This document shows positions 1-23,656 of a stretch of 64,000 nucleotides of DNA, piece by piece (within the stretch, counting starts at the first letter, position 1; each line of letters opens with the position of its first letter). The DNA lies in the IMG/VR virus record IMGVR_UViG_3300047546_001263, positions 37,261 through 101,260 of that record. One strand, given 5' to 3'. The position numbers and the translations under genes are program-made. Source of the stretch: a virus. The notes below the pieces were generated by a model. That model did not search any database and was not told the origin of the DNA. It saw nothing but the letters and a program-made list of their open reading frames with translations.

Positions 1-2152
1 AATCTTCGTTTCTCACAAGCTCATTCTTTATTCTATTTCTTGCATATACAACCCCTTTAGCTTGCTCTTTAGGTGTAAAAATAATTCTTAAATTTGGAAA
101 GTTATACTCTTTCAATTTAGTATAAGCTTCTTCTGTGTCTTGTATATTTACTCCTACAAAAACTCTACTAGGGTCAATAGCTTCTTCATATAAACTTTTT
201 AAAGTATCTATAAGTTGAGAATCGCAGTAACTTGCTATTGATACGAATATGTTACCATTTCCAAAACTCCAACTATCGTTATACTCTCTAAACCAGTTAC
301 CTTTAAAATGACACTCTGCAATAAATGGTATTTGATGTCCTAGGTTAAATTTTTCAGTATTAATATAGTAATTTTTATCCTCAATGTCAGACATATATCC
401 TCTCATTCTATAAATGTAAGAAGACAGTGTTGAATGACTATTACCTATAAACTTAATACTACGAGTACATATAAACTGCTCAATAATAGGAATCCAGTTA
501 TTATCAAATTCATTATAGATACTAACTTGATTCTTTAAATCTTCATAGAAAGAAACTCGATAAAGACCCATAAGAGGTCTAAAAAATTCTTTATCTCTAT
601 GGTCTGTTGCAATGTAAAGCTTACTTCCCTGAGGGATTATATCTTTTATATTCTCTAAAATTTGCTCACAGCTAATAAATAATTCTTTATATTGAAAGTC
701 ATTTCTACGAATATGAATAGAGTAGTAATCTCTATCTCCTAACTTATTAATAAATTGCCAAGCTAAATCAAAAATATCTGTACGATATCTTACATGTTTA
801 GCGATAAGTTTTTTGATCTCTACATCTAAACTTGTAAACAAGGTCTGATGAGTAACACCTAGAAGATTAGATTCAAGGAAAATAAATTCTTCATCTGTAA
901 AGTATTCTTCACTTCTTAATACTGGGCGGTGTTTATGAAACTTAACAGGCGGGTTAATTTTTTCAAAATTCATAACGTGTAAAACTGCATCATAATCTAA
1001 TACTTTACAAATACTTTTTACACTGTCGTAATTATGTTCTAATCCTTTTTCTTCACAGAACTTACTAAACGGTATGGAAATTACTCCTAAATCTGAAGTA
1101 TCAAAAAAAGATTCCATACTAGAGTTCCCTTCTAGTAAGTACATTTTATATTCTGGTGTTAAAACAAGCTTTCGATTAGTTAAGTATGCTATACATACTG
1201 CTAACTCTAACGACATTCTTATATTGTTGAAACCACCAGGCCAAGGTCTAAATAAAATATAACCTTTACTACCATCATAGAATTTAAAGATGCTAGAAAA
1301 ATCCCACTTATTGTAGTATATATAATCTGTTCTATACTGATCTACACTCGTAACCATCTTATTACTTGCTTCGCTTATTATATTTGATAAATCGTATTTT
1401 TGTGTTTGATCAAAGGTATGATCTTGCTTAAAGAACAGCTTGTTTCCTTGCTTATCTGAAATTACATTAGGGTAATGTAGTATACTTCCTATTGTAGACC
1501 TACCGGTATCGTTCCATGCAGTACAGGTTCCAATATCCTCAACTAAATCAACTTTTATATTAGAATCTTTAATTGCATAATCTAATCCCCACATTTCTGC
1601 TTCCCATCTTCCTTCTTTCTTTCTGATCTGCTCACAATACTCTGTATATTTTTTGTAAAATTTCTTTAGAGTATTAAACTTTAAAGCAAATGGGTACATT
1701 ATCCCTTGTGCATTATGGATATCTTTTTCTCGATCTTCCCATCCGTTTAGTGGAACAAAGTGAATGAACTTTTGACCGATGATATGATTGTCTTCTAATT
1801 CAAAATCAACTGCTTTTATAAACAGCATATCTGGGTCCAGGAATAATAACTTATCATTATCTTGGAAGTAGTTATTTTCGCATAACCATTCTACAGATTT
1901 ATATTTATTAGGGATACCACCCCACCAGTCATCGTTAGCTGTTTGCCAATTATGAGCATAGTCTGGTTGATCTATTACTATAGCGTCAGATAAAAAACTA
2001 AAATCTGGGTTTTCATGTCTGTGTCCGTAATCTCCGGAGAGTAGAACGACTAATTTACCTTTTTGATTTACCTTCTTTAAGGACCAGTGTAATAGTTTTA
2101 ACTGCCATGCTTGATACTCACATCTACTAGTTCCGACAACAATATAGTCCAT
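1..2152 (-). CDS. Multi-domain glycosyltransferase, 3'-partial, >=717 aa, not in ORF track: SGT1/HPAT (GT96/GT95)-like domain + O-fucosyltransferase-like domain + start of GT60 (Skp1 Hyp-GlcNAc transferase)-like domain
   Basis: Hand translation: ATG at 2152-2150 directly follows the TAA of the upstream gene and there is no in-frame stop down to base 2. N-terminus MDYIVVGTSRCEYQAWQLKLLHWSLKKVNQKGKLVVLLSG. Motifs: LLFLDPDMLF (DxD at 1829-1837), WEAEMWG (1586-1606), GGFNNIRMSLELAVCIAYLTNRKLVL (GGFNN 1223-1237), IHIRRNDF (HIRRND 698-715), LYIATD, IEQFIC..FIGNSHSTLS, IFVSIASYCD (221-250)..SRVFVGV..AKGVVYAR. Confidence 0.85.
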   Translation of the reverse strand, partial: MDYIVVGTSRCEYQAWQLKLLHWSLKKVNQKGKLVVLLSGDYGHRHENPDFSFLSDAIVIDQPDYAHNWQTANDDWWGGIPNKYKSVEWLCENNYFQDNDKLLFLDPDMLFIKAVDFELEDNHIIGQKFIHFVPLNGWEDREKDIHNAQGIMYPFALKFNTLKKFYKKYTEYCEQIRKKEGRWEAEMWGLDYAIKDSNIKVDLVEDIGTCTAWNDTGRSTIGSILHYPNVISDKQGNKLFFKQDHTFDQTQKYDLSNIISEASNKMVTSVDQYRTDYIYYNKWDFSSIFKFYDGSKGYILFRPWPGGFNNIRMSLELAVCIAYLTNRKLVLTPEYKMYLLEGNSSMESFFDTSDLGVISIPFSKFCEEKGLEHNYDSVKSICKVLDYDAVLHVMNFEKINPPVKFHKHRPVLRSEEYFTDEEFIFLESNLLGVTHQTLFTSLDVEIKKLIAKHVRYRTDIFDLAWQFINKLGDRDYYSIHIRRNDFQYKELFISCEQILENIKDIIPQGSKLYIATDHRDKEFFRPLMGLYRVSFYEDLKNQVSIYNEFDNNWIPIIEQFICTRSIKFIGNSHSTLSSYIYRMRGYMSDIEDKNYYINTEKFNLGHQIPFIAECHFKGNWFREYNDSWSFGNGNIFVSIASYCDSQLIDTLKSLYEEAIDPSRVFVGVNIQDTEEAYTKLKEYNFPNLRIIFTPKEQAKGVVYARNRIKNELVRNED

Positions 2153-3406
2153 TTATTGAGGTACAAATTTATAATCTGCTAATGTATAATGTAAAAAGAA
2201 ATTTCTAAAGAATTCTCCTTCAAAAGGTTCAATACGTCCATGTTTGTTAGTAGCAGATTCATATAGAATCATTTCCCCTGGTTCTGCATAAACTTTATGC
2301 CATCTACCTAAATGGTCTTGAATATCTAATGGCCAATCTCTATCTACCTGCTTATCTATTATTACTATAGATGATATGTGGTGAGTTACTAAAGTATCTG
2401 TATGTGGTTCTAGTATAGCCCCTCTTTTATAAGATCTGATACCGTAAATCCATTTCGGTACTAAACGTTCTTTATTACCTATAAACTCTTCGTGGATAGG
2501 TTGTAACTCTTCTGCAATAATCTCTCTAATACGGGTAAAAGCATCCATACTAAAGATTTCTACCGGTGCATTACCTTGATTATCGTGTATAAAATCAGTA
2601 ATACCGTTCCAATGTTCTGCTCGTACTGTAGGTTTCAGTAAGTTGTATGCTTCTGTAATCAACTGGAAGGTCTTTTCAGGTACTTTTACAACTTTAAATC
2701 CTAGTTCAGAAAGCTTTGGTAAATCTTCTTTCTTTGAAAATACTTTTTGTACTGGTTGCTGTGGTTGTGTCATTTCTTGATATTCTTTTGCAAGTCTAGC
2801 ATCTTCAGCACTATTGAATACATTTTCTCTAAACCATTTTGTAATAATTACTTTTCTACCTTTTCTTACAGGTAAACCTGCATGTAAAGCGGCTGAGTTT
2901 TCAGTTCCTGTACCGTTAGAGTTTTTCCAAACTACTGCAGTACCTTTTACTGGTGTAAATGTCTTTTGTAAGGTAGGAAAATCTGTTTCACCTCCTTCTT
3001 CAACATCATTAAGGTATATCATAAACGTCCATGTTCTTTGGCCGCTAGACAAACAATGGTTATGGTATGCTTCTTTTCCAAAAGCATCTTGGTGGTGTCT
3101 AAATTCTTGACCTACCTCATATATTTGACCTTGTGTTGGTTCTGAATAAGGAGCTTCTATTCCTAATTCTGTATACATTTTTTGATTAACACTACTGATA
3201 ATCGGATCTGTATCATGTAAAACTGCTGTAGAACTAGTACGGCCTTCGTCGTATTTTACAGATTGGGCTCCACTACCTGCTACGCTTGATCGAACACTTC
3301 CGTGTTCTGTTAGTCTTACAATATGATCACATTCTTCGTTTGTTAAGAACTGAGGGATTGTGAATATTTCCAATCCATGGCTGTTTTCTATATATACTCT
3401 TTCCAT
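2153..3406 (-). CDS. Tandem 2OG-Fe(II) dioxygenase: N-terminal prolyl 4-hydroxylase-like domain plus a second 2OG-Fe(II) domain
   Basis: Domain 1: FLTNEECD..RTSS..YEVGQEFRHHQD..QRTWTFMIYLNDVEEGGETDFP..ALHAGLPVRKGRKVIITKW (P4H-type HxD..H..K). Domain 2: YGIRSYKRGAILEPHTD..PGEMILYES..HGR (HxD..H.R). Confidence 0.85.
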   Translation of the reverse strand: MERVYIENSHGLEIFTIPQFLTNEECDHIVRLTEHGSVRSSVAGSGAQSVKYDEGRTSSTAVLHDTDPIISSVNQKMYTELGIEAPYSEPTQGQIYEVGQEFRHHQDAFGKEAYHNHCLSSGQRTWTFMIYLNDVEEGGETDFPTLQKTFTPVKGTAVVWKNSNGTGTENSAALHAGLPVRKGRKVIITKWFRENVFNSAEDARLAKEYQEMTQPQQPVQKVFSKKEDLPKLSELGFKVVKVPEKTFQLITEAYNLLKPTVRAEHWNGITDFIHDNQGNAPVEIFSMDAFTRIREIIAEELQPIHEEFIGNKERLVPKWIYGIRSYKRGAILEPHTDTLVTHHISSIVIIDKQVDRDWPLDIQDHLGRWHKVYAEPGEMILYESATNKHGRIEPFEGEFFRNFFLHYTLADYKFVPQ

Positions 3407-3423: not shown

Positions 3424-5139
3424 TTAACCATCACAAGCTACACAATCTTCTGCAGTTCTACTACCAATGTCTCCGTTAATTACAGAATCTGTTCTTAGAT
3501 AATATAAGGTTTTTATACCTAACTTCCAAGCCGTCTGGTGAACTAAGTTGATAAATCTTGGACTATCAGTTGGATCAAATGCTAAGTTTAAAGACTGAGT
3601 CTGATCGATATACTGCTGGCGGATTGCAGCTTGTTCTACCAACTGTAGCTGGTTAATTTCAGCAAATGTTAAGAAGATTGGTTTATCCTCTGCAGGCATA
3701 ACATCTTCTGGTAAATTTGCAATAGAACCTCTATCTTTCATAATCTGGTCCCATACTTCTTCTGTATTATGACCTCTTTCTAATAAATAGTTTTCTAGTT
3801 CAGGATTTTTACGAATAAAAGTTCCCTTTCCTGAATTAAATGTGTAGATATTCGCCGGTAATGGTTCAATACCTGCTGATACACCTCCTGATATAGTTGA
3901 ATTTGAAACTGTTGGTGCAATTGCAAGCAAGTGAGTGTTTCTCATACCTGTACCTTTACACCATACTGGTTCTCCATATTCATCAGCTAACTTTCTAGAA
4001 GCAGCTTCTGCTTGTGACTTAATTTGAGAGAATATCTGATGTGTAAAGCTATTTGCTGCAATACTAATAAAAGGTATCTTCTTTTGTTGTAATAATGTAT
4101 GCCATCCTAGAACTCCTAACCCAATAGCTCTACCTTTCTTAGCTGAACGATGTGCTCTGATTAAAGACTCTTTTCCGTTGGTCTTTACTAAAAACTCTTC
4201 CATTACTCCATCTAAGAAGTAGATTGCAGTTTCAATTAAATCAGTAGATTTCCATTCATCCCATTTAGCTAAGTTAACCGAACTTAAGCAGCAAATAAAA
4301 CTGTGCTCTTCGTCAGTATGTAAAGTAATCTCTGAACATATATTAGTCATTGTTACTTCTAAATTATTCTTAATATATGCCGGAGGGTTAGCATTGTTTA
4401 CATTATCTTTAAACATAATATAAGGTTCCCCTGTCTCAACTCTAGCCTTTAGTATTTCTACCCAGACTTCCATTGCCTCAGGGTCTCTACGCTCGATCTT
4501 TTGCATAAAGTTATCATCCACTACAACGCATTGATGTAGGTTAAGACACTGTCTATTCGGATCTCCTTTAGGTCGTCTAATCTGTAAAAATTCCTTAATA
4601 TCTGGATGGTTAATGTCTAGATTTACGGAAGCCGCTCCTCTTCGAACTGCTCCTTGATTTGTTGCAATAATAGTAGAATCGTAAATCTTAGCCCAAGGAA
4701 TAACTCCTTCTGACTGTCCTAGATCTCCGTTACCAATTTTGGAACCTCTTCCTCTAATTTTAGAAAGACCAATACCTACACCACCTCCTAACGAAGTCAA
4801 TCTCATCAATTCAGCATTTGTTAATCCAATACCTCTAATAGAGTCTGGAGTATCAATACCAAAGCAGGAAATAGGTAGTCCTTTGTCTGTACCCGTGTTA
4901 GATAAAACTGGAGAAGCTAAATTCAACCAACCTTTCCACATATACTTAAAAAACTTGGCTGCTAAATCAGGTCGATCTAATCTTGCTGCAACTGTATCTG
5001 ATACTCTCTTATATGCTTTTCGAGGAGTCTCTCCTGGAAGGAGATATCCTTTAGATATTGTTGATAAAGAAATTTCGTTCATCCATTCAGGATAATCTTT
5101 TCCTGCTTCCCATGCGGAAGTATCTACTTGTAGTGCCAT
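3424..5139 (-). CDS. nrdA: Ribonucleoside-diphosphate reductase class I alpha subunit (short, no ATP cone)
   Basis: PISCF, TNICSEI, CCLSSVNL, IAPTVS, KTLYY and C-terminal CVAC redox pair. Confidence 0.96.
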   Translation of the reverse strand: MALQVDTSAWEAGKDYPEWMNEISLSTISKGYLLPGETPRKAYKRVSDTVAARLDRPDLAAKFFKYMWKGWLNLASPVLSNTGTDKGLPISCFGIDTPDSIRGIGLTNAELMRLTSLGGGVGIGLSKIRGRGSKIGNGDLGQSEGVIPWAKIYDSTIIATNQGAVRRGAASVNLDINHPDIKEFLQIRRPKGDPNRQCLNLHQCVVVDDNFMQKIERRDPEAMEVWVEILKARVETGEPYIMFKDNVNNANPPAYIKNNLEVTMTNICSEITLHTDEEHSFICCLSSVNLAKWDEWKSTDLIETAIYFLDGVMEEFLVKTNGKESLIRAHRSAKKGRAIGLGVLGWHTLLQQKKIPFISIAANSFTHQIFSQIKSQAEAASRKLADEYGEPVWCKGTGMRNTHLLAIAPTVSNSTISGGVSAGIEPLPANIYTFNSGKGTFIRKNPELENYLLERGHNTEEVWDQIMKDRGSIANLPEDVMPAEDKPIFLTFAEINQLQLVEQAAIRQQYIDQTQSLNLAFDPTDSPRFINLVHQTAWKLGIKTLYYLRTDSVINGDIGSRTAEDCVACDG

Positions 5140-5161
5140 TATGTAATTTAATTAAATGTTT

Positions 5162-6139
5162 TTAAAATGCTTTTGACCAATCCATATGACCCTTAGAGTA
5201 GTTTGTTACTCTACTTGCAAAAAAGTCAGTATGCTGTTTGCCTGCAATTACTGCATCAAACCACTTCATTGTCTTTAATGCTCCTGCATCAATCTGGTCA
5301 GAAGGGATCAAAGGTTTTAAGCCTAGATCTCCCATTTTAGTATTAACCCTATGTTTAATAAAGTTTTTAAGATCATCTTTAGATAAATTCTCTAGATCTC
5401 CTAATTCAAAAACTTTATCGATAAAATCGAACTCTAATTTTAAAGCTAAGTGAGCTGCTGTTTCGATTTCACCTTGTAACTTTTCTGTATTAATCTCTGG
5501 GTACTCTGAAAGTAGCTGACGGAATAACCAACAACCTGCTTCTGAGTGTAGAGATTCATCTCGTACGGACCATTCAACAATCTGTCCAATACCTTTCAAT
5601 TTATTTCTCATCTTAAACGATAATAATACCGCGAAAGAAGAAAATAAATTAACTCCTTCAGTAAATGCTGAGAAGATAGCTAAAGATTTAGCTCGTTCAT
5701 GCCAATCTGGAGTACCGTCATGACTATCTCTAACATTCATTAGAGATTCAATCTTTGCTTTAGTAGCTTCGTCTTCTAAGAATTCTGCAAAGTTATCTAA
5801 ACCTAACTGCTCGTTAAGTAGAGAATAAGCTTCTGCATGTATAGTTTCAAAAGATCCAAAAGTAACACCCATCATAATAATCTCAGGCTTTCTAAACCAG
5901 CTAGTTACTAGTCCTGTCCAGTAATCGTTAACTACCGTCTCAGTCTGAGCAAAGCCTTTTAATATACCGCCGACTACATTCTTCTCGTGATCTTTTAGAT
6001 TAGATTTCCAATCTGTAACATCTTGTGCCATTGGTACTTCTGTGTGTAGCCAATGAGCTTGTTGTTGCTTTAACCAATAATCATACGCCTTTGGGTATTC
6101 AAATGGTTTATAAACAACTCTTTCATCTCTTAGTCCCAT
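5162..6139 (-). CDS. nrdB: Ribonucleoside-diphosphate reductase class I beta subunit
   Basis: YKPFEYP, ETIHAEAY, EGVNLFSSF, RDESLH, DFFASRVTNY. Confidence 0.96.
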   Translation of the reverse strand: MGLRDERVVYKPFEYPKAYDYWLKQQQAHWLHTEVPMAQDVTDWKSNLKDHEKNVVGGILKGFAQTETVVNDYWTGLVTSWFRKPEIIMMGVTFGSFETIHAEAYSLLNEQLGLDNFAEFLEDEATKAKIESLMNVRDSHDGTPDWHERAKSLAIFSAFTEGVNLFSSFAVLLSFKMRNKLKGIGQIVEWSVRDESLHSEAGCWLFRQLLSEYPEINTEKLQGEIETAAHLALKLEFDFIDKVFELGDLENLSKDDLKNFIKHRVNTKMGDLGLKPLIPSDQIDAGALKTMKWFDAVIAGKQHTDFFASRVTNYSKGHMDWSKAF

Positions 6140-6160
6140 AGTATATTTTTAGTGTGTTAA

Positions 6161-6206
6161 ATAATAAAATCCCCGGTTGAGTTTAGCAGAAAATGCTTCC
6201 GGGGAT
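6161..6206 (-). terminator. GC hairpin plus U-rich tract between helicase and nrdB (terminator or leader structure)
   Basis: ATCCCCGG (6169-6176) / CCGGGGAT (6199-6206) inverted repeat, followed on the minus strand by TTTATTAT. Confidence 0.55.
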
Positions 6207-6240
6207 GTAGAAATAAATAGCATCTTCCTCTAAGTTGGTC

Positions 6241-7575
6241 TTAATTTTCTTCAAAAAATTTCTTAGCAATCTCAAAATGTGTACCTTGAGAACTGCTACC
6301 TCCTTCATCTAGAATAGCTTTACTCTCTATCTCGATATGACCATTATTTGTATCCATTTTAACATTATAAGTCATACCGTCTTGTCCGTATCTATTCTTC
6401 ATAACGTGAAGTCGACCTGTACCTAATACCTTGTCTTCTTTCTGTCTAGATAAAGATAAGCATATATCGGCCACCATCATCTTATCATAAGAACCTGCTG
6501 CTTTATCACCTTCAATTACATTATCTTTAGCACCCATTCGGTTTACCTGAGATGGTGTAAGTATAGGTATTTTTAATTCTTTAGCTAAGCTCTTTGTAGC
6601 AATGAATACATCATCAATTTCATCCTTACGTTCAGAGAATTTACCTCGTGACGGTGCTTTAAGATAGTCGACATAGTCGATGACAATCATGTCAGGTTTA
6701 TGTCCCATATCAATACACTTCTGAACGTGACTCTTAATGTTATTTACTGTCGCTGCTTTAGGAGCATATTCTTTTACGATAAGCTTACCTTTCAAATTAT
6801 TTATTTGAGCTTCTACGTCCTTTCTATGCTTATTTACTTCGTCGATAGAATAGCCTGTAAAGTAGCAGTCAAATCGTTTACCTACGTAATCTTCTCCTAA
6901 CTCTAAGGTATAATAGTTTACCTTGAAGCCTAACTTTACAGCATGTGCTGCTGCTGCCACCATCGTCCAAGATTTACCGCCACCTGGGTTACCGAATACG
7001 ATAATCAAATCACCAGGGCCCCATCCTCCTTGAATTGTTTCATTCATAGCAGGCCATGGTGTAGGTATAGTAGGTCTATAGTCTGTTCTATATCTAGACT
7101 CTACATCTTTATCATACTCATGTCCGATATTTTTATCCATAGCAGCTTTCATAGCTTTTTCGATAAGGTTTCTGATACCTTCGAAATCGCTTTGCTTTAA
7201 CAAGTCTGCTGAGGATAGAATAGCAGCTTTCATTTCTTGATTCTTACAGAAGGTAGTAAACTCCTCTTCTACGTAAGCTAAATCATCTTGAGAAGCTGCA
7301 TAAGAATTTCTTAACTCTTCTTTTAATGCAACCTGTAATACTTCGTTATCTACTTTTTGTAACTCTACTTTTAATACATCCATAGTAACGGTAGTATGGT
7401 ACTTATCGAAGTACTTTATAATCTGCCCTACAATCCATTTATGTGTATCAGCATCAAAATACTCCTCTCTCAAAACATCTCTTACCGTAAGTAAGAAACC
7501 TTTATCTGTTAGTAAGGCGCCGATAACTTTAATTTGAAAAGCTTTACCGTACTGTGTTAACTTCTGCAATGTCAT
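6241..7575 (-). CDS. Replicative DNA helicase (DnaB / T4 gp41-like)
   Basis: Walker A GNPGGGKS, YTLEL, IVIDYVD, TPSQVNR, MKNRYG. Confidence 0.92.
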   Translation of the reverse strand: MTLQKLTQYGKAFQIKVIGALLTDKGFLLTVRDVLREEYFDADTHKWIVGQIIKYFDKYHTTVTMDVLKVELQKVDNEVLQVALKEELRNSYAASQDDLAYVEEEFTTFCKNQEMKAAILSSADLLKQSDFEGIRNLIEKAMKAAMDKNIGHEYDKDVESRYRTDYRPTIPTPWPAMNETIQGGWGPGDLIIVFGNPGGGKSWTMVAAAAHAVKLGFKVNYYTLELGEDYVGKRFDCYFTGYSIDEVNKHRKDVEAQINNLKGKLIVKEYAPKAATVNNIKSHVQKCIDMGHKPDMIVIDYVDYLKAPSRGKFSERKDEIDDVFIATKSLAKELKIPILTPSQVNRMGAKDNVIEGDKAAGSYDKMMVADICLSLSRQKEDKVLGTGRLHVMKNRYGQDGMTYNVKMDTNNGHIEIESKAILDEGGSSSQGTHFEIAKKFFEEN

Positions 7576-7580
7576 ATAAC

Positions 7581-8603
7581 TTATTGTTTAAAAACCGTTA
7601 ATGTTCTAAAATTCTCTAACCAGCCTTCCGTGTTCTTAGTTATACCTTCTATCTTATCTATGTCTAGTAGGTGTAAAAAAGCTCCTGTTTGTAGAGGTGG
7701 AATAGGCTCTTTTAGTACACTTAATATATGAAGAATTTCTTTATCATCCAACTGGCCTTCATGTAAATTCATCAGTTGGTAGTTAGTTTTTACCCGATCC
7801 CAATTGTGTATAATTTTAGCAAAAATAGATTTACCGTCTAAGTTCTGCTCACATACTGAATAGATATCTTGTAGTTCGTAGTTAGGATTAGTAAGTAATC
7901 CTGGGAACTCTTTTGTTAGTGTTTTTAACCCCAATCCTTTTACTCCAGAAAGATTATCTGAATTATCTCCTAGTAAGGCCTTCACTATGTTATAGTTTTG
8001 TGGAAGTACTTCTAATTCTTGTACGATATTTTCCTTTGTGTATAAAGTTTTCTTAATAGGAGAGTATACTGAGATACATCCATCAATCAACTGTAAGAAG
8101 TCTTTATCTGAAGATACAATTGTAACCTGTTTCCCAGATGCTGAAGCACCTAAAGCTAAGTCTGCAATAATATCATCTGCCTCTAACTTCTCCATTGTTA
8201 GACTCTGTACTGGTAAGCATTCAAGATAGTCTTTTAATCTATCTAATTGAGCAGAAAGTGATTCATACTCTTCTTGCTTATTCTCATACATACCCCAATT
8301 AGTAATCCTTGTATGTTGTCTTTGTGCTTTATAGTTTGGATCTATATTCTTTCTATTAGTAGAAGAACCTTTACCATCAAACACGCAAACTACTCTTGTA
8401 GGGTCTACTGTACGTACTAAAAATCCTAGAGATCTAAGGAAGCCTACAAGACCACCGATATGGTGGCCTTGAGGATTCATTGCTCTGAGTGTTGAGAAGC
8501 TACGAATAAATGTATTCATAGAATCTATGATCAAGATATGATCGTTTAACTCTCTAGGCGGGGACTCTTTAAGGTTGTTTATAATTTTGCTATAGTCTGT
8601 CAT
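7581..8603 (-). CDS. 5'-3' exonuclease / flap endonuclease (Pol I N-terminal domain / T4 RNase H-like)
   Basis: LIIDSMN, VFDGKG, YKAQR, EADDII, VSSDKDFLQL, GDNSDNLSGVKGLG. Confidence 0.92.
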   Translation of the reverse strand: MTDYSKIINNLKESPPRELNDHILIIDSMNTFIRSFSTLRAMNPQGHHIGGLVGFLRSLGFLVRTVDPTRVVCVFDGKGSSTNRKNIDPNYKAQRQHTRITNWGMYENKQEEYESLSAQLDRLKDYLECLPVQSLTMEKLEADDIIADLALGASASGKQVTIVSSDKDFLQLIDGCISVYSPIKKTLYTKENIVQELEVLPQNYNIVKALLGDNSDNLSGVKGLGLKTLTKEFPGLLTNPNYELQDIYSVCEQNLDGKSIFAKIIHNWDRVKTNYQLMNLHEGQLDDKEILHILSVLKEPIPPLQTGAFLHLLDIDKIEGITKNTEGWLENFRTLTVFKQ

Positions 8604-9676
8604 TAATCGTCTAATAGGTTTGGTAGGATTTCATCTTCTTCCATGTCACCTTCTTCGACTAGACTAAAATCAATAGATCCTAAAAGTTTCAACCAGTGAT
8701 CCTTATGAGAATCTTTATATTTATCGATTGCTTTCTTATCGTCTGCAATAAAACCATGAGGGGTCATTACAATTCGTCCTCTTGTCTGTACACCTTCAAT
8801 ATGATTCTTTTCGATTTGTATATTTGTTCTTTTAGCAAATTCAACCTGTAAGCCACTTTTAATAGCTTTAATCTTAGAAGTTCCTGGGTTAGTGATGTTA
8901 CCGAATGTAATTACTAATGTTGCATCATACCACATCGACATACCGCCTTTATTTTGTAATTTTGGCTGTGACATCGGTGAGTCTGGTTTCTGTGTCCATA
9001 CTTTATTAATAGCTACTAGAGTATTAGTGTATGGAGATCCTTCTTTTCGAGATAATAGAATCTTCTGATTGAGGTTATTACCAAACTGAGTAGACATTGC
9101 ACCTGCGTTCCATTCGTTATTATTCTTATTAGATCTAACAGATAGATCACACGGTACAGATCCTACTGAATCCCAGAAGAAACATAAATCATGAGGTAGG
9201 TTTCCTTTAGCTTGTTCGTCTAAAAGGTCTGCTATGTACGATGCTACATCTTCAATAGTATTTAACGTACCTCTATCAGCGTAAAGGAAAAAACCTTCGT
9301 AGTCTGTAATCTCACCAGTTGCTTGATCTACAACTTCTTCAAACTGTAGACCCATTTCTTTAGCGTGACTCCAAGACCATTTCATCTCAGTGATGATTAA
9401 TACCGGGAGTATTCCCATCTTTTGAGCGGATACTGCTGCTTCAAGTAATGCAGTAGTCTTGCCGGTGTCGCTATGCCCACGGAGCAGGGTAATATGCCCC
9501 GTAGGTATGCCCGGTATAGACGTAATGTCTTGAAAAGCTTTTGATAGAGGAATCCATCCTTGCTCTTTGAACTTTACCGAAGCATTAGCGAAACCTTTTT
9601 TCTTCTTAAAATTTCCTAAGTTAAATCCACCCTTTACTATAGCAGATGCTTTTTCTGCTGTTGCGCTTTTTGCCAT
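8603..9676 (-). CDS. RecA/UvsX-like recombinase
   Basis: Walker A GHSDTGKTT, Walker B FFWDSVG, KGG motif; lies among replication genes. Confidence 0.85.
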   Translation of the reverse strand: MAKSATAEKASAIVKGGFNLGNFKKKKGFANASVKFKEQGWIPLSKAFQDITSIPGIPTGHITLLRGHSDTGKTTALLEAAVSAQKMGILPVLIITEMKWSWSHAKEMGLQFEEVVDQATGEITDYEGFFLYADRGTLNTIEDVASYIADLLDEQAKGNLPHDLCFFWDSVGSVPCDLSVRSNKNNNEWNAGAMSTQFGNNLNQKILLSRKEGSPYTNTLVAINKVWTQKPDSPMSQPKLQNKGGMSMWYDATLVITFGNITNPGTSKIKAIKSGLQVEFAKRTNIQIEKNHIEGVQTRGRIVMTPHGFIADDKKAIDKYKDSHKDHWLKLLGSIDFSLVEEGDMEEDEILPNLLDD

Positions 9677-9681
9677 TTATT

Positions 9682-10482
9682 TTATTCGTTAAAAAGGTCA
9701 TCAAATTTACTTACCGTGTCTTTCAAACCAGGAGCTGCAGTTTCTAAAGTAAAGTCAGTTGAATGACTACCTAAAGTCTGAGTCAGGTTGTCTGCTGGAG
9801 GAGCTGCTGGAGTTTCCTCATCTGCTGAACCAGGAGTTAAGTAATTTTGTAATTGCTTTTTAATGAACTCATAATCGTATTGAGTATGAATCTCAACAGG
9901 GTGTGGTTGGTTCTTTAACCATAAGTCAACTTGTGCTGCATTATCTGATAATGGAGTTTGCTTAGGTCGAATACGAACCGATGTGGTTGGGTATGGGTTA
10001 CCAGCAGCAACTTCTACTACTAAGTCCCATCCATTCATTACGTCTGTGTAATCTCCTACCTCTTCGTCTTGAGCTAATGCTAATAACGCTTTGTAGATCG
10101 TCACACCAAATCCCCATAAACGAACACCTTTCTCTTCTTCACCTTTTACGATTACTGGAGCGAAAATACGTGTCTTGGGGTTAAGTTTACCGGCTAATGT
10201 CCAGTTATCCTTATCTGAAGTCTTCTTTAATTCCTTAATGAATTCTTCAATAGGATCTTGTTTTCCGAAGTTAGATAAAGCGGCCATAGGGTATTTACCA
10301 ATTCCATAGTGAAACTTTACTTCCTTAAATGGAAGATTAGGATCATACATAGAAGGTACAATACGAATAGTGCTTTTTCCAATTTCAGGTTTCCAGAAGG
10401 TAGCTGAATAGTCTACTTTCTCTCTTTCTTGTCCGCCGTTATTCAACGCAGACAGCTTTGCTTTGATTGCATCTAGATTCAT
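9682..10482 (-). CDS. Single-stranded DNA-binding protein (T4 gp32-like)
   Basis: FWKP..TIRIVP..HY..DPIEEF, RLWGFG, acidic tail KFDDLFNE; adjacent to recombinase. Confidence 0.8.
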   Translation of the reverse strand: MNLDAIKAKLSALNNGGQEREKVDYSATFWKPEIGKSTIRIVPSMYDPNLPFKEVKFHYGIGKYPMAALSNFGKQDPIEEFIKELKKTSDKDNWTLAGKLNPKTRIFAPVIVKGEEEKGVRLWGFGVTIYKALLALAQDEEVGDYTDVMNGWDLVVEVAAGNPYPTTSVRIRPKQTPLSDNAAQVDLWLKNQPHPVEIHTQYDYEFIKKQLQNYLTPGSADEETPAAPPADNLTQTLGSHSTDFTLETAAPGLKDTVSKFDDLFNE

Positions 10483-10510
10483 AATATAACTTTAATTGTT
10501 TATAACTTAT

Positions 10511-10522
10511 TAAATATACGAA
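10511..10522 (-). promoter_or_regulatory. TTCGTATATTTA promoter-like motif upstream of SSB (class shared with 12355, 23625 and 41260)
   Basis: Recurrent TTCGTAnnTTwA found 18-31 bp upstream of start codons; resembles the Bacteroidota -7 element TAnnTTTG. Confidence 0.55.
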
Positions 10523-10529
10523 ATTACTC

Positions 10530-10988
10530 TCAATTCTCCAACTCTACGATCTTAAATAATTTAGTATTTACTCTTTTTAATTCCGGACCTTTCGTTAATA
10601 GAATACAATTCTTGTAATCAGTCCAGTTAATCTTAAAAGAAGTATCTAACACTCCGTTATTAAGTTCTTTGATTAGGGTATTAAGTGCGTTAATCGTATA
10701 AAGGGTATTTGCTTCTTTCTTGCGATGTACTAGAATAGTATTATCGATGAAGTTAGAAACGTTGCCAAAATCTACATTATAAGTACAGATGTATTCATCT
10801 TGGCTTTTTGAATATAAAACAAATATCTTATTGTAGATTATTCTATATTTTTGTACTATATTTTCTATTGTTGCATCCAATTCCTCTCCTGTGGAGAAAG
10901 TGCAGAACAGTTTATTACTCATATCCTCAGTTAAATATATTTGATCGATATCGTAATCGAATCGACTTTGAGACATAACATTTTCCAT
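10530..10988 (-). CDS. Hypothetical protein (true start may be downstream)
   Basis: Intact 152-aa ORF between the PolA-like gene and SSB, with a TATTTATA motif upstream. Confidence 0.7.
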   Translation of the reverse strand: MENVMSQSRFDYDIDQIYLTEDMSNKLFCTFSTGEELDATIENIVQKYRIIYNKIFVLYSKSQDEYICTYNVDFGNVSNFIDNTILVHRKKEANTLYTINALNTLIKELNNGVLDTSFKINWTDYKNCILLTKGPELKRVNTKLFKIVELEN

Positions 10989-11014
10989 TGTGTAATTATA
11001 AATATTAAAAGGTT

Positions 11015-12337
11015 TTACAAAACCAGGTTTTCTGATGTTTTTATTTTAACTGGGTATTTCTTATTTTCGCTTAGTATCAATGCTAATTCGTTAAGTATAT
11101 GCTCTCCATCTTCTTTAGCATAGTCAAAAAGTATTGCATCGTAAGTATATAAAGCTATTTTAGTCTTTTTATCTCTAAGATACTTTAACACTTCTTTTAA
11201 TATAAGGACATTTCTTGCAGTTTCCAACGATTGCATAATATAATTCATAAGTTTCTGCGGATGCATATCTTTTAGATTCTGATTAAACGGCTTATTGCTG
11301 ATAGGAGTACGTGCTTCTCCTTTAGAAAACTCACTCCATAAGTAGTTAATATAATTTTGAATCTTGATAAAAATCTCTAAATTTTTATATCCTTCTGGTA
11401 TTCTACCGTAGATAGCCTGGAAGTTTATCTGTTTAGCTTCCTGGTATTCTTCTTGAGTAATATCTTCTTTACCAAAGTAGTACTTTCCTAAGGCTTTGTG
11501 AGCTGATTCTCCTTCTATCTTAAAGTCAATCTGCTCTGATAATAATCGTAGATGGTACCCGTCAAAATCAAATTCAACAAAGCAATCATATTGAGGAATA
11601 ATAGCTTTTCTATACTCTTCTTCTTTAGGTATAGCTGCAAAGTTTACACTATTAAATGCGTTAGTAGGTCTTGAAGTACTATTATATAGGTTGTAGTATG
11701 TATAAGCTATATTATCCTGTATATTAAACCGTGGTGTATTTGGTTTAAATAAGTCTATAAACGGTTGATATATAACTCTTAATCCATGCTGTTCTAGTAA
11801 GTAAAATACCTTAACAGCAACATCGTTATAGAACTTAAAAGTCTCTTCTTTAGGTTCTTCAATATACTTCTCTATTACATCAAATACTTTTTCACTCTGT
11901 TCATGTAGTTTAGATAAAGGTATTATCTGATTTACATTATCAAAGTCTTTAAACTTATTATAGAACCAATTTATTGTTGATAATTTACTAGGTAGTTCAA
12001 GCTTTTCGTAATACCAGAAAGCTCTCCAAAGGTTAATATCAATTGCGTCTATAAGCGGAAAATGATACAGTAGGTTCTTTTTATCTAAAACATAGACTTT
12101 CCTGTAAGTCTTAAGTATCTCAAATACTTCTGCTTTTTCTACGTTTAATCCTTCATCATGGTTTATAGGGATAATGTACCCTCCGGTATCATCCAAGGGC
12201 CTAATGTAGACTGCTACAGTTGTAGTAAGTTTGGGATGGAAGTTATCGTTAGATGAAATTACATCTACATAAACATCGGTATCCGGATAGCTTCGCAGTC
12301 TATCTAGCTGCTGCTTATTTTCTACTATATAAAACAT
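11015..12337 (-). CDS. Compact, divergent family A polymerase-like protein
   Basis: Motif A-like FDFDGYHLRLL, motif B-like AKQINFQAIYG, NYIMQS, motif C-like YTYDAILFD. Confidence 0.75.
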   Translation of the reverse strand: MFYIVENKQQLDRLRSYPDTDVYVDVISSNDNFHPKLTTTVAVYIRPLDDTGGYIIPINHDEGLNVEKAEVFEILKTYRKVYVLDKKNLLYHFPLIDAIDINLWRAFWYYEKLELPSKLSTINWFYNKFKDFDNVNQIIPLSKLHEQSEKVFDVIEKYIEEPKEETFKFYNDVAVKVFYLLEQHGLRVIYQPFIDLFKPNTPRFNIQDNIAYTYYNLYNSTSRPTNAFNSVNFAAIPKEEEYRKAIIPQYDCFVEFDFDGYHLRLLSEQIDFKIEGESAHKALGKYYFGKEDITQEEYQEAKQINFQAIYGRIPEGYKNLEIFIKIQNYINYLWSEFSKGEARTPISNKPFNQNLKDMHPQKLMNYIMQSLETARNVLILKEVLKYLRDKKTKIALYTYDAILFDYAKEDGEHILNELALILSENKKYPVKIKTSENLVL

Positions 12338-12354
12338 TTATTATAACCTTTTAC

Positions 12355-12366
12355 TTAAGATACGAA
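12355..12366 (-). promoter_or_regulatory. TTCGTATCTTAA promoter-like motif upstream of PolA-like gene
   Basis: Matches the TTCGTAnnTTwA class, 18 bp upstream of the ATG at 12337. Confidence 0.5.
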
Positions 12367-12386
12367 CTATTTTGTTAAGATCAAAC

Positions 12387-13541
12387 TTAACATTGTTTTA
12401 TATCATAAAGTTTTCCGTCTCTATCAATCTTTGCAGTATAGTCTCCATATCCTTCTACGCGAATAGTGTAGTAGAGGTTGTAAGATTCTGGTGACTGTAT
12501 CTTTGGGTTGATATTAGGTATCCTTCTAACCGGGTAGTATACGTTCCCGCTAACGGCATTTTTAGTTCTGTAGTACTTAACATCTTTCTTAGGATTACCT
12601 TCATCATCTAATAAAGGTCCTTCTTGATTGTATATCTTCATACTTACTGGAACGAAAGAACCACATGATCTTTCGGCACTAGGATTTCCTACTTGAGCCT
12701 GATACCATGTTAATGATTTAGCGTATGCTGATGTTGAATCGGCACTTTGTGCTCCTTCGTTTGCAGCTGCTTCTCCAGCATTGGCTTCTGATTGAGGAAG
12801 CTCAGGAAGCGGAGGTAATTCTTCTTGCTCTATTACTTTTTTATTAGATGCGTTGACTACAGTAAGTCCTCTAGTCTCTAAGGTAGTAACTTCGTTCTTT
12901 TCTTTCTTTAATTGCTTGAATTTAGAAGCTTCTTCAACTACAAATTGTTTTAGGTCTGATAAAAAGTCTGTCATACCGGGTATAACTTCTTCAGCTTGTA
13001 ATACAACGTCTCTATTCCTTGCTATTGCTCCAGGATATATGTACCCATTTACTGTTTCATCTTCGGAGGGTCCTAGGAGGTTCCACTCTAACTTAGTTCT
13101 TCTATAGTAGCCCTTATCCGCTATACTCCTATATGTTTCTGATGTTATTTCTTTTATTTCTCCGTTTCTAACATCTTGTAAAAAATACCTTCTAAAAGTT
13201 CCTTGTATATAATCTTCTTCAGTTGGTTTTGGGTAGTAGAAAGCTTCTGTTGATTTATTCTTTATACCCGGAGGGACCATGTTGTATGCAGGGTTAGATC
13301 CTACATTTTCTAGGAGTAATGTAGCTTTCGCAAAGTTACCTTTTAGTAGATCTTCTAAAGCTACCTTATATTTACTTCCCCAAGAAGTTGCTACCCCTAC
13401 TAAGTCATCAACTGGTTTATTTAGTATATCAGTATACTTAGCATAATCATTAGATGCTTCTCCTGTAGCTTGTCCAAGTGCTTCAATAACATATTGAGAA
13501 CCGGGTACGTAGCTTAATATATCGCTTTTAATATCTGCCAT
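12387..13541 (-). CDS. Hypothetical protein, probably baseplate-associated
   Basis: 384-aa ORF tightly packed at the end of the baseplate operon; no recognised family. Confidence 0.6.
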   Translation of the reverse strand: MADIKSDILSYVPGSQYVIEALGQATGEASNDYAKYTDILNKPVDDLVGVATSWGSKYKVALEDLLKGNFAKATLLLENVGSNPAYNMVPPGIKNKSTEAFYYPKPTEEDYIQGTFRRYFLQDVRNGEIKEITSETYRSIADKGYYRRTKLEWNLLGPSEDETVNGYIYPGAIARNRDVVLQAEEVIPGMTDFLSDLKQFVVEEASKFKQLKKEKNEVTTLETRGLTVVNASNKKVIEQEELPPLPELPQSEANAGEAAANEGAQSADSTSAYAKSLTWYQAQVGNPSAERSCGSFVPVSMKIYNQEGPLLDDEGNPKKDVKYYRTKNAVSGNVYYPVRRIPNINPKIQSPESYNLYYTIRVEGYGDYTAKIDRDGKLYDIKQC

Positions 13542-13543
13542 CT

Positions 13544-22574: not shown

Positions 22575-22615
22575 TAATAGAGTTACTTATATTATATAAA
22601 TAGGTAAAGCTCGCT

Positions 22616-23594: not shown

Positions 23595-23656
23595 AAATTT
23601 TATTTTGAATAACGTTATTTCATATAAATATACGAAAAATAACTTTTGATAACAAC

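What the first reader, a model, noticed from the sequence alone, without database searches (positions are those of the whole stretch)
1..3406. Candidate phage-encoded prolyl-hydroxylation plus O-glycosylation system (P4H + tri-domain glycosyltransferase missed by the ORF track)
Seen: a P4H-like dioxygenase stop codon abuts (TAA-ATG) a >=717-aa ORF running off the window edge. Domain 1 matches by eye the plant/algal peptidyl-serine alpha-galactosyltransferase SGT1 (GT96) / Hyp O-arabinosyltransferase HPAT (GT95) pattern: Y..WQ..LL..S.KK..Q.G.L..LLS, NK..V.WL, DxD, W..EM.G. Domain 2 has protein O-fucosyltransferase-family motifs (GGFNN.R, HIRRxD, YIATD, EQ.IC..FIG..ST.S). Domain 3 starts with IFVSIASYxD..R.FVGV..A.G..YAR, the start of GT60 enzymes. 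Established: in Dictyostelium and Toxoplasma, the prolyl hydroxylase PhyA and the GT60 enzyme Gnt1 modify Skp1 sequentially, and SGT1/HPAT act on hydroxyproline-rich peptides made by P4Hs. Inference: the phage carries a compact eukaryote-style hydroxylate-then-glycosylate assembly line for virion or host proteins. Pro-rich candidate acceptors include the portal tail (SVPPG..HPSPPK), scaffold (APAGAPAP) and SSB (PAAPPA). Alternative: given its linkage to nrdAB, it could modify DNA, as phage TET/JBP + GT systems do. I do not know a described phage system with this architecture, but I cannot search.
Basis: partly seen in the sequence, partly recalled or inferred. Interest (0 to 1): 0.92.

Follow-up and report, generated by a model that had tools for sequence, protein, structure and literature searches.

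The report
Phage mucin-like protein hydroxylation-glycosylation array
An uncultured freshwater phage carries a ten-gene array: three long proline/threonine-rich "mucin-like" proteins, a double proline-hydroxylase-type oxygenase, a three-in-one sugar transferase of families known from eukaryotic protein glycosylation, and sugar-tailoring enzymes; it most likely sugar-coats its own proteins, which nobody has tested.

Summary
A 417-aa dioxygenase gene ends in TAA directly before the ATG of a glycosyltransferase ORF, which is 917 aa once extended beyond the window.

The domain calls hold. Domain 2 is O-FucT and domain 3 is GT60, both by direct Pfam hits. Domain 1 is HPAT-like only through its homologues. 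The dioxygenase is a fusion of a collagen-type prolyl 4-hydroxylase and a second intact 2OG oxygenase.

The two genes head a ten-gene same-strand array. It also holds two NodU-like carbamoyltransferases, a second GT60, a GDP-mannose 3,5-epimerase and three Pro/Thr/Ala/Ser-repeat proteins. These repeat proteins are far better acceptor candidates than the portal, scaffold or SSB.

The dioxygenase sits directly upstream of the transferase in 14 of 19 assessable viral lineages, and one metagenomic protein fuses them. However, an 89%-complete related phage keeps the transferase and the repeat proteins with no hydroxylase. Hydroxyproline as the sugar acceptor therefore stays unproven.

Best reading: cytoplasmic O-glycosylation of the phage's own mucin-like proteins, here with proline hydroxylation. 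I found no published description. This scan noted the same architecture earlier on other DNA (e1-5660559, e1-5660566).

The parts
2765..3406 (-). Dioxygenase, N-terminal domain (aa 1-214): collagen-type prolyl 4-hydroxylase.
   Evidence: PF13640 at 62.9 bits. Best PDB sequence matches are B. anthracis P4H 5iax (E 1e-24), human C-P4H alpha-2 7zsc, PBCV-1 vCPH 5c5t and Chlamydomonas P4H 2jig. H105, D107, H175 and K185 are invariant in 20 homologues.
2156..2764 (-). Dioxygenase, C-terminal domain (aa 215-417): second 2OG-Fe(II) oxygenase of unresolved substrate.
   Evidence: phrog_2954, E 7.5e-18, mislabelled 'ferrochelatase'. H335, D337, H389 and R391 are invariant. The model has pLDDT 96. It has a DSBH fold with PHD2, DdPhyA, Pseudomonas P4H, BesD/Hal and vCPH tied at Z 14-16.
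1283..2152 (-). GT917 domain 1 (aa 1-290): HPAT-like retaining-type GT-A domain with a D106-P-D108 motif.
   Evidence: No direct Pfam hit. 35 of 62 homologues hit PF23452 HPAT; P0017, P0020 and the tri-domain relative P0105 (66% identical to domain 1) pass its cut-off. The model has pLDDT 93. Nearest folds are Skp1 alpha-GalT 6mw8, glycogenin and LgtC at Z 16-16.6.
278..1282 (-). GT917 domain 2 (aa 291-625): O-FucT-family (GDP-sugar dependent) domain.
   Evidence: PF10250 at 86.6 bits against a cut-off of 31.5. The only PDB sequence relatives are POFUT2 (profile E 1e-8). The GGFNN.R and HIRR.D residues are invariant.
1..277 (-). GT917 domain 3 (aa 626-917): GT60 'GlcNAc' domain. Only its first ~92 residues lie in the window. 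The ORF runs about 600 nt beyond the left edge; the whole ORF is L002:14660-17413.
   Evidence: PF11397 at 134.6 bits against a cut-off of 21 on the full ORF. D723, H725, R727, W732 and D733 are invariant.
1..3406 (-). In-window head of a ten-gene same-strand array. The other eight genes lie beyond the left edge of the window. Coordinates are for locus L002 = G000:C1:22000-41000, minus strand. In transcription order after GT917: carbamoyltransferase 1 (13111-14658, 515 aa); stand-alone GT60 (12192-13118, 308 aa); carbamoyltransferase 2 (10637-12199, 520 aa); GDP-mannose 3,5-epimerase homologue (9661-10632, 323 aa); PT966 repeat protein (6723-9623); 71-aa ORF (6492-6707); PT257 (5675-6448); PT251 (4912-5667). 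The three PT proteins are the candidate acceptors.
   Evidence: ORFs; Pfam. The epimerase matches GME 2c59 at E 1e-97. Both carbamoyltransferases are NodU-like. The PT proteins hold 195, 63 and 41 Pro with 4 Pro-Pro pairs in all. They are the three most Pro-rich ORFs of the record and have no hydrophobic segments. Synteny is conserved in relatives.

Best explanation
The two genes are the head of a ten-gene, same-strand array. The array encodes both the substrates and the enzymes of a cytoplasmic protein-modification pathway.

The substrates are three phage proteins built of non-contiguous (Ala/Thr/Ser)-Pro repeats: PT966, PT257 and PT251. They have no signal peptides.

In this phage the double dioxygenase first hydroxylates prolines in the repeats. 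Its collagen-type P4H domain would do this; the second oxygenase domain may add a further hydroxylation.

The 917-aa enzyme and the stand-alone GT60 then build O-linked glycans on Hyp and/or Thr/Ser. The HPAT-like retaining GT-A domain and the GT60 domains would use UDP-sugars. The O-FucT-like domain would use a GDP-sugar, plausibly the GDP-L-galactose made by the adjacent GDP-mannose 3,5-epimerase. The two NodU-like carbamoyltransferases would then O-carbamoylate the glycan.

The product would be a mucin-like glycoprotein that is either mounted on the virion or released at lysis.

Shown here: gene content, domain families, intact catalytic residues, synteny, fusions and co-occurrence. Inferred: every enzymatic step, the acceptor residue, the donors, the order of steps and the fate of the product.
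For: Families. The P4H domain matches solved collagen-type P4Hs at E 1e-24 to 1e-17 and has invariant H105, D107, H175 and K185. The second oxygenase domain has an invariant H335-x-D337...H389 triad. O-FucT and GT60 are well over the Pfam cut-offs. Domain 1 joins PF23452 HPAT through its homologues and has a retaining GT-A fold nearest to protein- and glycoprotein-directed GT8 enzymes.

Coupling. The double dioxygenase lies 400 nt or less upstream of the transferase in 14 of 19 assessable viral lineages. These go down to 33% identity and sit in different flanking contexts. The same adjacency occurs in Bacteroidota MAG contigs and in two gammaproteobacterial chromosomal loci.

Fusion proteins. 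P0070 joins HPAT-like, GT60, P4H and the second oxygenase in one chain. P0126 joins the tri-domain GT to a carbamoyltransferase. P0012 and P0010 add a PLOD-type GT domain.

Substrates. The three most Pro-rich ORFs of the 101-kb record are the three in the array. Compositionally similar but non-homologous PT-repeat ORFs flank the module in 9 of 21 viral lineages. In the 166-kb relative, the only two ORFs with Pro at or above 0.19 and Pro+Thr+Ser above 0.6 both lie near the module, the second one only if the linear record is read as circular. In the three cellular or MAG loci that hold them (L078, L079, L081), the PT-repeat proteins carry twin-arginine-like leaders. That would fit modification before export.

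Location. No enzyme or PT protein has a hydrophobic segment, while the neighbouring exported proteins do.

Donor. The epimerase is a GDP-mannose 3,5-epimerase homologue. In other lineages it abuts or overlaps the transferase gene.

Other. Ala-Pro makes up 31-49% of prolines in 4 of 5 lineages with the hydroxylase, against 1-8% in 2 of 3 without it. Contigs from freshwater RNA libraries of at least two studies match all parts of the array. That shows presence only, not transcription.
Against: There are no biochemical data for any member.

Domain 1 of this protein has no direct Pfam HPAT hit.

The hydroxylase is not obligatory. Four lineages lack it next to the transferase. G001 (166.6 kb, 89% complete) has no PF13640 or double-dioxygenase match at all, yet keeps every conserved residue of the HPAT-like domain and keeps PT-rich proteins. 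At least there, the sugars cannot depend on a phage P4H.

PT-rich ORFs were not seen within 10 kb in 12 of 21 lineages, though many of those contigs are short.

The PT proteins match no known virion protein and lie outside the structural module, so a virion role is a guess.

PF10250 also contains plant cell-wall polysaccharide transferases, so a protein acceptor for domain 2 is not certain.

The Ala-Pro trend rests on eight lineages.
Confidence: 0.6

Rival explanations
1. Mucin-type O-glycosylation on Thr/Ser only. The tri-domain transferase and GT60 glycosylate Thr/Ser of the PT repeats, as GT60 pp-alpha-GlcNAc transferases, POFUTs and SGT1 do. The double dioxygenase is an optional add-on. 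It would stiffen or stabilise the polyproline-II repeats, or act on something else, without creating sugar attachment sites.
For: G001 and three further lineages keep an intact transferase and PT-rich proteins without any P4H-type domain. The repeats hold as many Thr+Ser as Pro. From my own knowledge, GT60, POFUT and SGT1 enzymes have Thr/Ser acceptors.
Against: The hydroxylase abuts the transferase stop-to-start here and in 14 of 19 lineages, and is fused to HPAT-like and GT60 domains in P0070. The nearest named family of domain 1 is a Hyp-directed enzyme family. Repeats in lineages with the hydroxylase are enriched in Ala-Pro.
Confidence: 0.22
2. The enzymes act on a non-protein acceptor: a host surface polysaccharide, LPS or capsule (for example for superinfection exclusion), or a small-molecule glycoconjugate. 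The neighbouring PT-rich proteins would be unrelated cargo.
For: The phage carries much other glycan machinery. NodU-type carbamoyltransferases are known from oligosaccharide and antibiotic tailoring, and PF10250 includes polysaccharide transferases (my own knowledge). The analogous S-SCSM1 cyanophage island has no PT-rich ORF.
Against: The array has no membrane-associated or lipid-carrier enzymes, flippase or polymerase, and every enzyme lacks a hydrophobic segment. The named characterised members of the HPAT family, the nearest solved relative of domain 2 (POFUT2) and the GT60 enzymes I know of act on proteins. Non-homologous PT-repeat proteins recur beside the module in viral and cellular genomes.
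Confidence: 0.1
3. DNA hypermodification, the first reader's alternative: the dioxygenase oxidises a base, as TET/JBP enzymes do, and the transferases glycosylate it.
For: The array lies next to nrdAB and replication genes. From my own knowledge, phage base-glycosylation systems exist.
Against: The N-domain is a collagen-type P4H by sequence, and neither domain gave a TET/JBP match. The transferase families are not known from DNA modification. In other lineages the module sits in other contexts without nrdAB. The genome has a separate 7-deazaguanine gene, QueC, about 19 kb away.
Confidence: 0.03
4. Metabolic reading taken from cyanophage work: the 2OG oxygenases mainly consume or sense 2-oxoglutarate, or repair DNA, and are only loosely linked to the sugar genes.
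For: Sullivan et al. 2010 (PMC3037559) proposed this for the many cyanomyovirus 2OG-Fe(II) oxygenases, and listed 'ferrochelatase-domain' proteins and carbamoyltransferases as sporadic host-like genes.
Against: That proposal was not tested. It does not explain the tight adjacency and the fusions with protein-type glycosyltransferases found here.
Confidence: 0.03

Closest known systems
Plant and green-algal hydroxyproline-rich glycoprotein pathway: P4H, then HPAT (CAZy GT95) and SGT1 (GT96) acting on extensins and AGPs
   Same: A collagen-type P4H together with an HPAT-family GT-A domain. The candidate substrates have Ala-Pro, Thr-Pro and Ser-Pro repeats like AGP glycomodules.
   Different: The enzymes here are soluble and without membrane anchors, so they would act in the cytoplasm, not the ER or Golgi. 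The domain is fused to O-FucT and GT60 domains. The repeats have almost no contiguous Pro. The P4H is dispensable in some lineages. Domain 1 reaches the family only through homologues.
Skp1 hydroxylation and glycosylation pathway of Dictyostelium and Toxoplasma (PhyA, Gnt1 of GT60, multi-domain PgtA, Gat1/AgtA)
   Same: A cytoplasmic pathway with a prolyl hydroxylase, a GT60 enzyme and multi-domain transferases. The nearest fold of domain 1 includes the Skp1 alpha-galactosyltransferase 6mw8 (Z 16.6). DdPhyA 6t8m is among the top fold matches of the second oxygenase domain.
   Different: The Skp1 pathway modifies a single proline of one protein. Here the likely targets are hundreds of repeat prolines or threonines. 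The catalytic P4H here is of the collagen type, not the PHD type. There is no Skp1, and carbamoyltransferases and an O-FucT domain are added.
GT60 polypeptide alpha-GlcNAc transferases that start mucin-type O-glycans on Thr in Trypanosoma cruzi and Dictyostelium (my own knowledge)
   Same: A GT60 domain next to Thr/Pro-rich mucin-like proteins.
   Different: Those enzymes are Golgi membrane proteins. The acceptor was not tested here.
Giant-virus protein hydroxylation and glycosylation: PBCV-1 vCPH (A085R, PDB 5c5t) with Pro-rich viral ORFs; Mimivirus L230 lysyl hydroxylase-glycosyltransferase; three-domain chlorovirus A064R (my own knowledge)
   Same: Virus-encoded P4H-type and multi-domain transferases acting on the virus's own repeat or capsid proteins. 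vCPH matches both oxygenase domains.
   Different: Those are eukaryotic viruses with other transferase families. None combines HPAT-like, O-FucT and GT60 domains with carbamoyltransferases.
Mycobacteriophage virion O-glycosylation (Freeman et al. 2023, cited in PMC11256854)
   Same: Phage-encoded transferases decorate the phage's own proteins.
   Different: Other transferase families, capsid and tail-tube targets, no hydroxylase and no dedicated mucin-like substrates.
Cyanomyovirus S-SCSM1 island downstream of nrdAB (MK867354)
   Same: An O-FucT gene flanked by 2OG oxygenases, including the C-domain type, with a carbamoyltransferase and GDP-sugar genes including a GDP-mannose 3,5-epimerase, also placed after nrdAB.
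   Different: All are single-domain genes. There is no HPAT-like or GT60 domain and no PT-rich ORF in the 19 kb examined. Its function is uncharacterised.

Membership tests
HPAT family (Pfam PF23452; CAZy GT95, with SGT1/GT96 as kin) | Sequence match to the family model above its cut-off | tested here: inconclusive
   This protein gives no hit at E<=1. However, 35 of 62 of its phmmer homologues hit PF23452 (best E 1.8e-40). P0017 (30 bits), P0020 (35 bits) and the tri-domain relative P0105, 66% identical to domain 1 (26.2 bits), pass the 23.9-bit cut-off.
HPAT family (Pfam PF23452; CAZy GT95, with SGT1/GT96 as kin) | GT-A fold with a DxD motif, retaining type | tested here: met
   The model has pLDDT 93. 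D106-P-D108 is at least 90% conserved. The best folds are retaining GT8/GT6 enzymes at Z 15.6-16.6. No GT95 or GT96 structure appeared among the matches for a direct comparison.
HPAT family (Pfam PF23452; CAZy GT95, with SGT1/GT96 as kin) | Acceptor is peptidyl hydroxyproline (or Ser for SGT1) | not testable with these tools
   Adjacency to a P4H in 14 of 19 lineages argues for it. Intact domains in lineages without a P4H argue against an obligate Hyp acceptor.
HPAT family (Pfam PF23452; CAZy GT95, with SGT1/GT96 as kin) | Golgi type II membrane protein | tested here: not met
   No hydrophobic segment; the maximum KD(19) is 1.14.
GDP-fucose protein O-fucosyltransferase family (PF10250; POFUT1/2, GT65/GT68 and kin) | Family model above its cut-off, with conserved catalytic Arg motifs | tested here: met
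   86.6 bits against 31.5. POFUT2 is the only PDB sequence relative. R312, R482 and R483 are invariant.
GDP-fucose protein O-fucosyltransferase family (PF10250; POFUT1/2, GT65/GT68 and kin) | GDP-sugar donor and a Ser/Thr acceptor in a folded Cys-rich module | not testable with these tools
   A GDP-mannose 3,5-epimerase lies in the array. PT966 holds three Cys-rich modules. Both are only suggestive.
GT60 (PF11397 'GlcNAc'; Gnt1 and pp-alpha-GlcNAcT) | Family model above its cut-off, with a conserved metal-binding motif | tested here: met
   134.6 bits (domain 3) and 156.8 bits (308-aa protein) against a cut-off of 21. D723 and H725 are invariant.
Collagen-type prolyl 4-hydroxylase | P4H catalytic domain with HxD...H and a 2OG-binding Lys | tested here: met
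   PF13640 at 62.9 bits. Solved P4Hs match at E 1e-24 to 6e-17. H105, D107, H175 and K185 are invariant.
Collagen-type prolyl 4-hydroxylase | Hydroxylates peptidyl proline | not testable with these tools
   Inferred from family membership and from the neighbouring Pro-repeat proteins.
PHD/EGLN-PhyA-type prolyl hydroxylase (for the C-terminal oxygenase domain) | A fold and active site specifically of the PHD type | tested here: inconclusive
   DdPhyA and PHD2 lead the Foldseek list (E 5e-7, TM 0.6). By Z-score they tie with BesD/Hal amino-acid hydroxylases and halogenases, Pseudomonas P4H, vCPH and unnamed oxygenases at 14-16.
GDP-mannose 3,5-epimerase | Close full-length sequence similarity to characterised GME | tested here: met
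   E 1e-97 and 330 bits over residues 6-322 to 2c59; the next family scores 96 bits.
NodU/CmcH O-carbamoyltransferases | Both Carbam_trans domains present | tested here: met
   PF16861 and PF02543 in both proteins. Both are far below the NodU equivalog cut-off, so they are not NodU itself.
Skp1 modification pathway | A Skp1 target with the conserved proline | not tested
   No Skp1 search was run. From my own knowledge, Skp1 is a eukaryotic protein, so membership is not claimed, only a resemblance in logic.

The most novel reading that the evidence does not exclude
Phages and some bacteria have a cytoplasmic counterpart of the plant hydroxyproline-rich glycoprotein pathway. Dedicated mucin-like repeat proteins would be proline-hydroxylated, O-glycosylated on Hyp (and on Thr/Ser) with sugars including L-galactose, and carbamoylated. 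They would then be displayed on virions, or exported by Tat in cells. This would also give a function to the widespread, unexplained phage '2OG-Fe(II) oxygenase / ferrochelatase-domain' genes.
Probability: 0.35. Interest if true: 0.85.

Novelty: new variant of a known kind. Interest (0 to 1): 0.72.

Why it matters
Protein hydroxyproline glycosylation is regarded as a trait of plants, algae and protists. Virion glycosylation has been shown in only a few phages.

This array points to a self-contained pathway in phages of freshwater Bacteroidota-like hosts, with substrates and enzymes encoded side by side. It recurs in dozens of uncultured phage lineages and in some bacterial chromosomes.

If confirmed, it would do four things:
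- Show a prokaryotic or viral mucin/AGP-like glycoprotein system.
- Assign a function to common but unexplained phage 2OG oxygenases and carbamoyltransferases.
- Provide soluble, fused HPAT-like, O-FucT-like and GT60 enzymes that are easy to express, for families whose eukaryotic members are membrane-bound and in part lack structures.
- Bear on how phages shield or stick their particles in nature.

The substrate, enzymes and donor-forming epimerase are all defined genes, so the question can be tested directly by co-expression and mass spectrometry.

Tried and rejected
Contexts of distant homologues came from the search for related loci instead.
- Direct Pfam and PDB sequence searches gave nothing for domain 1.
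- The profile search returned only unnamed metagenomic proteins and no named plant HPAT, so the link to the plant enzymes rests on the Pfam model alone.
- Structure searches could not separate GT95/GT96 from GT8/GT6, or PHD-type from other DSBH oxygenases.
- The PT proteins gave no hit in Pfam, PHROGs or GenBank phages, and only meaningless TM<0.35 hits in the protein atlas. Their role as virion parts is unsupported.
- The sigma-70 promoter and terminator scan was at chance level.
- Microcystis phage Mel-JY01 (P4H) and S-SCSM1 showed no PT-rich neighbour, so neither is a cultured model of this system.
- The TGT/DpdA Pfam model found nothing in the record. Only QueC was confirmed.
- RNA-library contigs cover the array but cannot prove transcription.
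- Complex prediction was not used, because enzyme-substrate pairs are poor cases for it.
Those genes are now given in L002 coordinates.

Full report
**Observation**

The window is the right-hand 64 kb of a 101,260-bp viral record that CheckV rates 58% complete. On the minus strand, a 417-aa ORF (window 2153-3406) ends in TAA immediately before the ATG of a second ORF that leaves the window. In the full record the second ORF is 917 aa (L002:14660-17413). The finding is real and sits at the stated coordinates.

**The phage**

- All large genes lie on one strand.
- The window holds nrdA/B, a DnaB-like helicase, a 5'-3' exonuclease, a tail sheath, fibres, a major capsid protein, a portal and a terminase, so this is a myovirus.
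- The nearest deposited phage by capsid protein is Flavobacterium phage vB_FspM_immuto, at 66% identity.
- Relatives of the transferase at 48-53% identity sit in Saprospiraceae and other Bacteroidota MAG bins.
- The DNA recurs in freshwater and riverine metagenomes from at least eight studies.
- A freshwater phage of a Bacteroidota host is therefore likely, but this is an inference.

**The dioxygenase**

Residues 1-214 are a collagen-type prolyl 4-hydroxylase.
- PF13640 scores 62.9 bits.
- Solved P4Hs of B. anthracis, human C-P4H, chlorovirus PBCV-1 and Chlamydomonas match at E 1e-24 to 6e-17.
- H105, D107, H175 and K185 are invariant in 20 homologues.

Residues 215-417 are a second 2OG oxygenase.
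- An H335-x-D337...H389 triad and R391 are invariant.
- PHROGs mislabels this family as 'ferrochelatase'.
- A confident model (pLDDT 96) has the double-stranded beta-helix fold.
- DdPhyA and PHD2 lead the Foldseek list.
- By Z-score they tie at 14-16 with amino-acid hydroxylases and halogenases, bacterial P4H and vCPH.
- The substrate of this domain is therefore open.

**The 917-aa transferase**

Domain 2 is O-FucT.
- PF10250 scores 86.6 bits.
- POFUT2 is its only PDB sequence relative.

Domain 3 is GT60, with PF11397 at 134.6 bits.

Domain 1 has no direct Pfam hit, and its family is rare: 75 cluster representatives among 1.84 billion proteins.
- 35 of 62 homologues hit PF23452 HPAT.
- Several pass its cut-off, including P0105, a tri-domain relative 66% identical to domain 1.
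- Its model (pLDDT 93) is a retaining-type GT-A fold.
- The nearest folds are the Skp1 alpha-galactosyltransferase, glycogenin and LgtC, at Z about 16.

The conserved motifs of all three domains are invariant across 11 diverse tri-domain proteins, so all three domains are probably active.

**Surroundings**

Downstream on the same strand, mostly abutting or overlapping, come these genes:
- a NodU-like carbamoyltransferase;
- a 308-aa GT60;
- a second carbamoyltransferase;
- a GDP-mannose 3,5-epimerase homologue (E 1e-97 to Arabidopsis GME);
- a 966-aa protein (PT966);
- a 71-aa ORF;
- a 257-aa protein (PT257) and a 251-aa protein (PT251).

The three last-named proteins consist largely of (A/T/S)-P-(T/V/S/A) repeats. 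Together they hold 299 prolines with only 4 Pro-Pro pairs. The repeats are interrupted by small Cys-rich modules. These are the three most Pro-rich ORFs of the whole record. Neither these proteins nor the enzymes have a hydrophobic segment, whereas the next genes upstream have clear signal peptides.

**Comparative evidence**

Close relatives: nineteen IMG/VR contigs at 83-99% identity share the exact synteny. That shows a population, not independent coupling.

Wider sample: a profile search gave 55 loci, which fall into 21 lineages at 75% identity.
- Of the 19 lineages with enough upstream sequence, the double dioxygenase lies 400 nt or less from the transferase in 14.
- It lies 1.4 kb away in one further lineage.
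- This holds down to 33% identity and in contexts without nrdAB.

PT-repeat ORFs that are similar in composition but not homologous flank the module in 9 of 21 lineages.

Natural fusions tie the parts together:
- P0070 is HPAT-like + GT60 + P4H + second oxygenase.
- P0126 is the tri-domain GT + a carbamoyltransferase.
- Several relatives append the second GT60 or a PLOD-type GT domain.

Cellular genomes show the same set.
- It occurs in a Ca. Azotimanducaceae chromosome (L078) and a Paraglaciecola scaffold (L081).
- In those two loci, and in a 107-kb Bacteroidota MAG contig (L079), the PT-repeat proteins carry twin-arginine-like leaders.
- That would suit export after cytoplasmic modification.

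**The caveat**

- Four lineages lack the dioxygenase beside the transferase.
- One of them, G001 (166.6 kb, 89% complete), has no P4H-type domain anywhere in the record.
- It still keeps every conserved residue of the HPAT-like domain.
- It also has two strongly PT-rich ORFs near the module, counting the second one only if the linear record is read as circular.
- The core is therefore transferase + carbamoyltransferases + epimerase + PT proteins. Hydroxylation is a frequent but dispensable addition.
- Repeats in lineages with the hydroxylase are rich in Ala-Pro (31-49% of prolines in 4 of 5 lineages). In 2 of 3 lineages without it the share is 1-8%. This suggests the hydroxylase targets the repeats, but the sample is small.

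**Mechanism proposed**

- Proline hydroxylation of the repeats occurs in the cytoplasm.
- O-glycans are then built on Hyp and/or Thr/Ser by four GT domains.
- The O-FucT-like domain plausibly uses the epimerase's GDP-L-galactose, since fucose is 6-deoxy-L-galactose.
- The glycan is then O-carbamoylated.
- All enzymatic steps are inferred.

**Rivals**

- Glycosylation on Thr/Ser only (0.22).
- Non-protein acceptors (0.10).
- DNA modification (0.03). This is unlikely given the families, the variable context and a separate QueC gene.
- The cyanophage '2OG economy or DNA repair' idea (0.03; PMC3037559).

**Novelty**

- No record among 50,697 GenBank phages has the tri-domain transferase. The best is a single-domain O-FucT in cyanophage S-SCSM1, whose island after nrdAB is loosely analogous.
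- Full-text searches found no paper on phage HPAT-like or GT60 enzymes, or on a phage P4H-glycosyltransferase system.
- Known precedents are mycobacteriophage virion glycosylation and giant-virus hydroxylases and transferases.
- Earlier notes of this scan describe the same architecture on another genome (e1-5660559, e1-5660566). They also describe this array as read from the neighbouring window (e1-6060745). My tests agree with them but add the P4H-less lineages as a limit.

**Verdict**

This is a real, conserved and apparently undescribed protein-modification array. It is a new variant of virus-encoded protein hydroxylation and glycosylation.

Noticed in passing
L008, L011, L012 versus L002 (GT60s and CT2 genes; L002:10637-13118): Within otherwise 84-99% identical relatives, the stand-alone GT60 and the second carbamoyltransferase are only 48-51% identical to those here. 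An insert of about 830 bp follows the first carbamoyltransferase. This looks like replacement of a two-gene cassette, hinting at glycan diversification within one phage population.
   Followed up: no
L007, L016, L018 (GT917 homologues): In three contigs the transferase is split into two ORFs: 68+809, 601+298 and 575+335 aa. These could be assembly errors, frameshifts or decay.
   Followed up: no
L078:6377-7552, L079:6725-8044, L081:7276-8271: Two bacterial chromosomal loci and one Bacteroidota MAG contig carry the module together with PT-repeat proteins that have twin-arginine-like leaders. L079 also has a C-terminal sorting-domain-like tail. This suggests Tat export of pre-modified proteins.
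   Followed up: partly
L002:51-4813 (G000 22050-26812), just beyond the PT proteins: A run of proteins with signal peptides or lipoboxes (113, 765, 553 and 156 aa). The 765-aa protein has an EPN...WND C-type-lectin-like motif. A sugar-binding exported protein next to a glycoprotein array may be related.
   Followed up: no
I only saw the dense ORF run there. It may supply or extend the glycans.
   Followed up: no
L003 (Synechococcus phage S-SCSM1, MK867354, 93.8-112.8 kb): A cultured cyanomyovirus has, also after nrdAB, an O-FucT flanked by 2OG oxygenases, a carbamoyltransferase, GDP-mannose dehydratase, fucose synthase and GDP-mannose 3,5-epimerase, interleaved with tRNAs. It could serve as an experimental entry point for part of this chemistry.
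   Followed up: partly
G000:C1:17122-17844: A QueC homologue at 127.9 bits. The standard TGT model finds nothing.
   Followed up: partly
L002:4800-19001: Contigs from four freshwater or riverine RNA libraries match parts of the array. In run X16 they match PT251/257, PT966, the epimerase, CT1, GT917 and the dioxygenase with 0-6 mismatches per listed contig, five of the eight exact. This shows presence in RNA libraries only, and carried-over DNA is not excluded. The repeat regions show many strain-level length variants.
   Followed up: partly
P0012, P0010 (metagenomic relatives): Some tri-domain transferases carry an extra C-terminal PLOD-type GT domain. This is the collagen hydroxylysine glycosyltransferase type. 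One also has an F5/8 type C domain.
   Followed up: no
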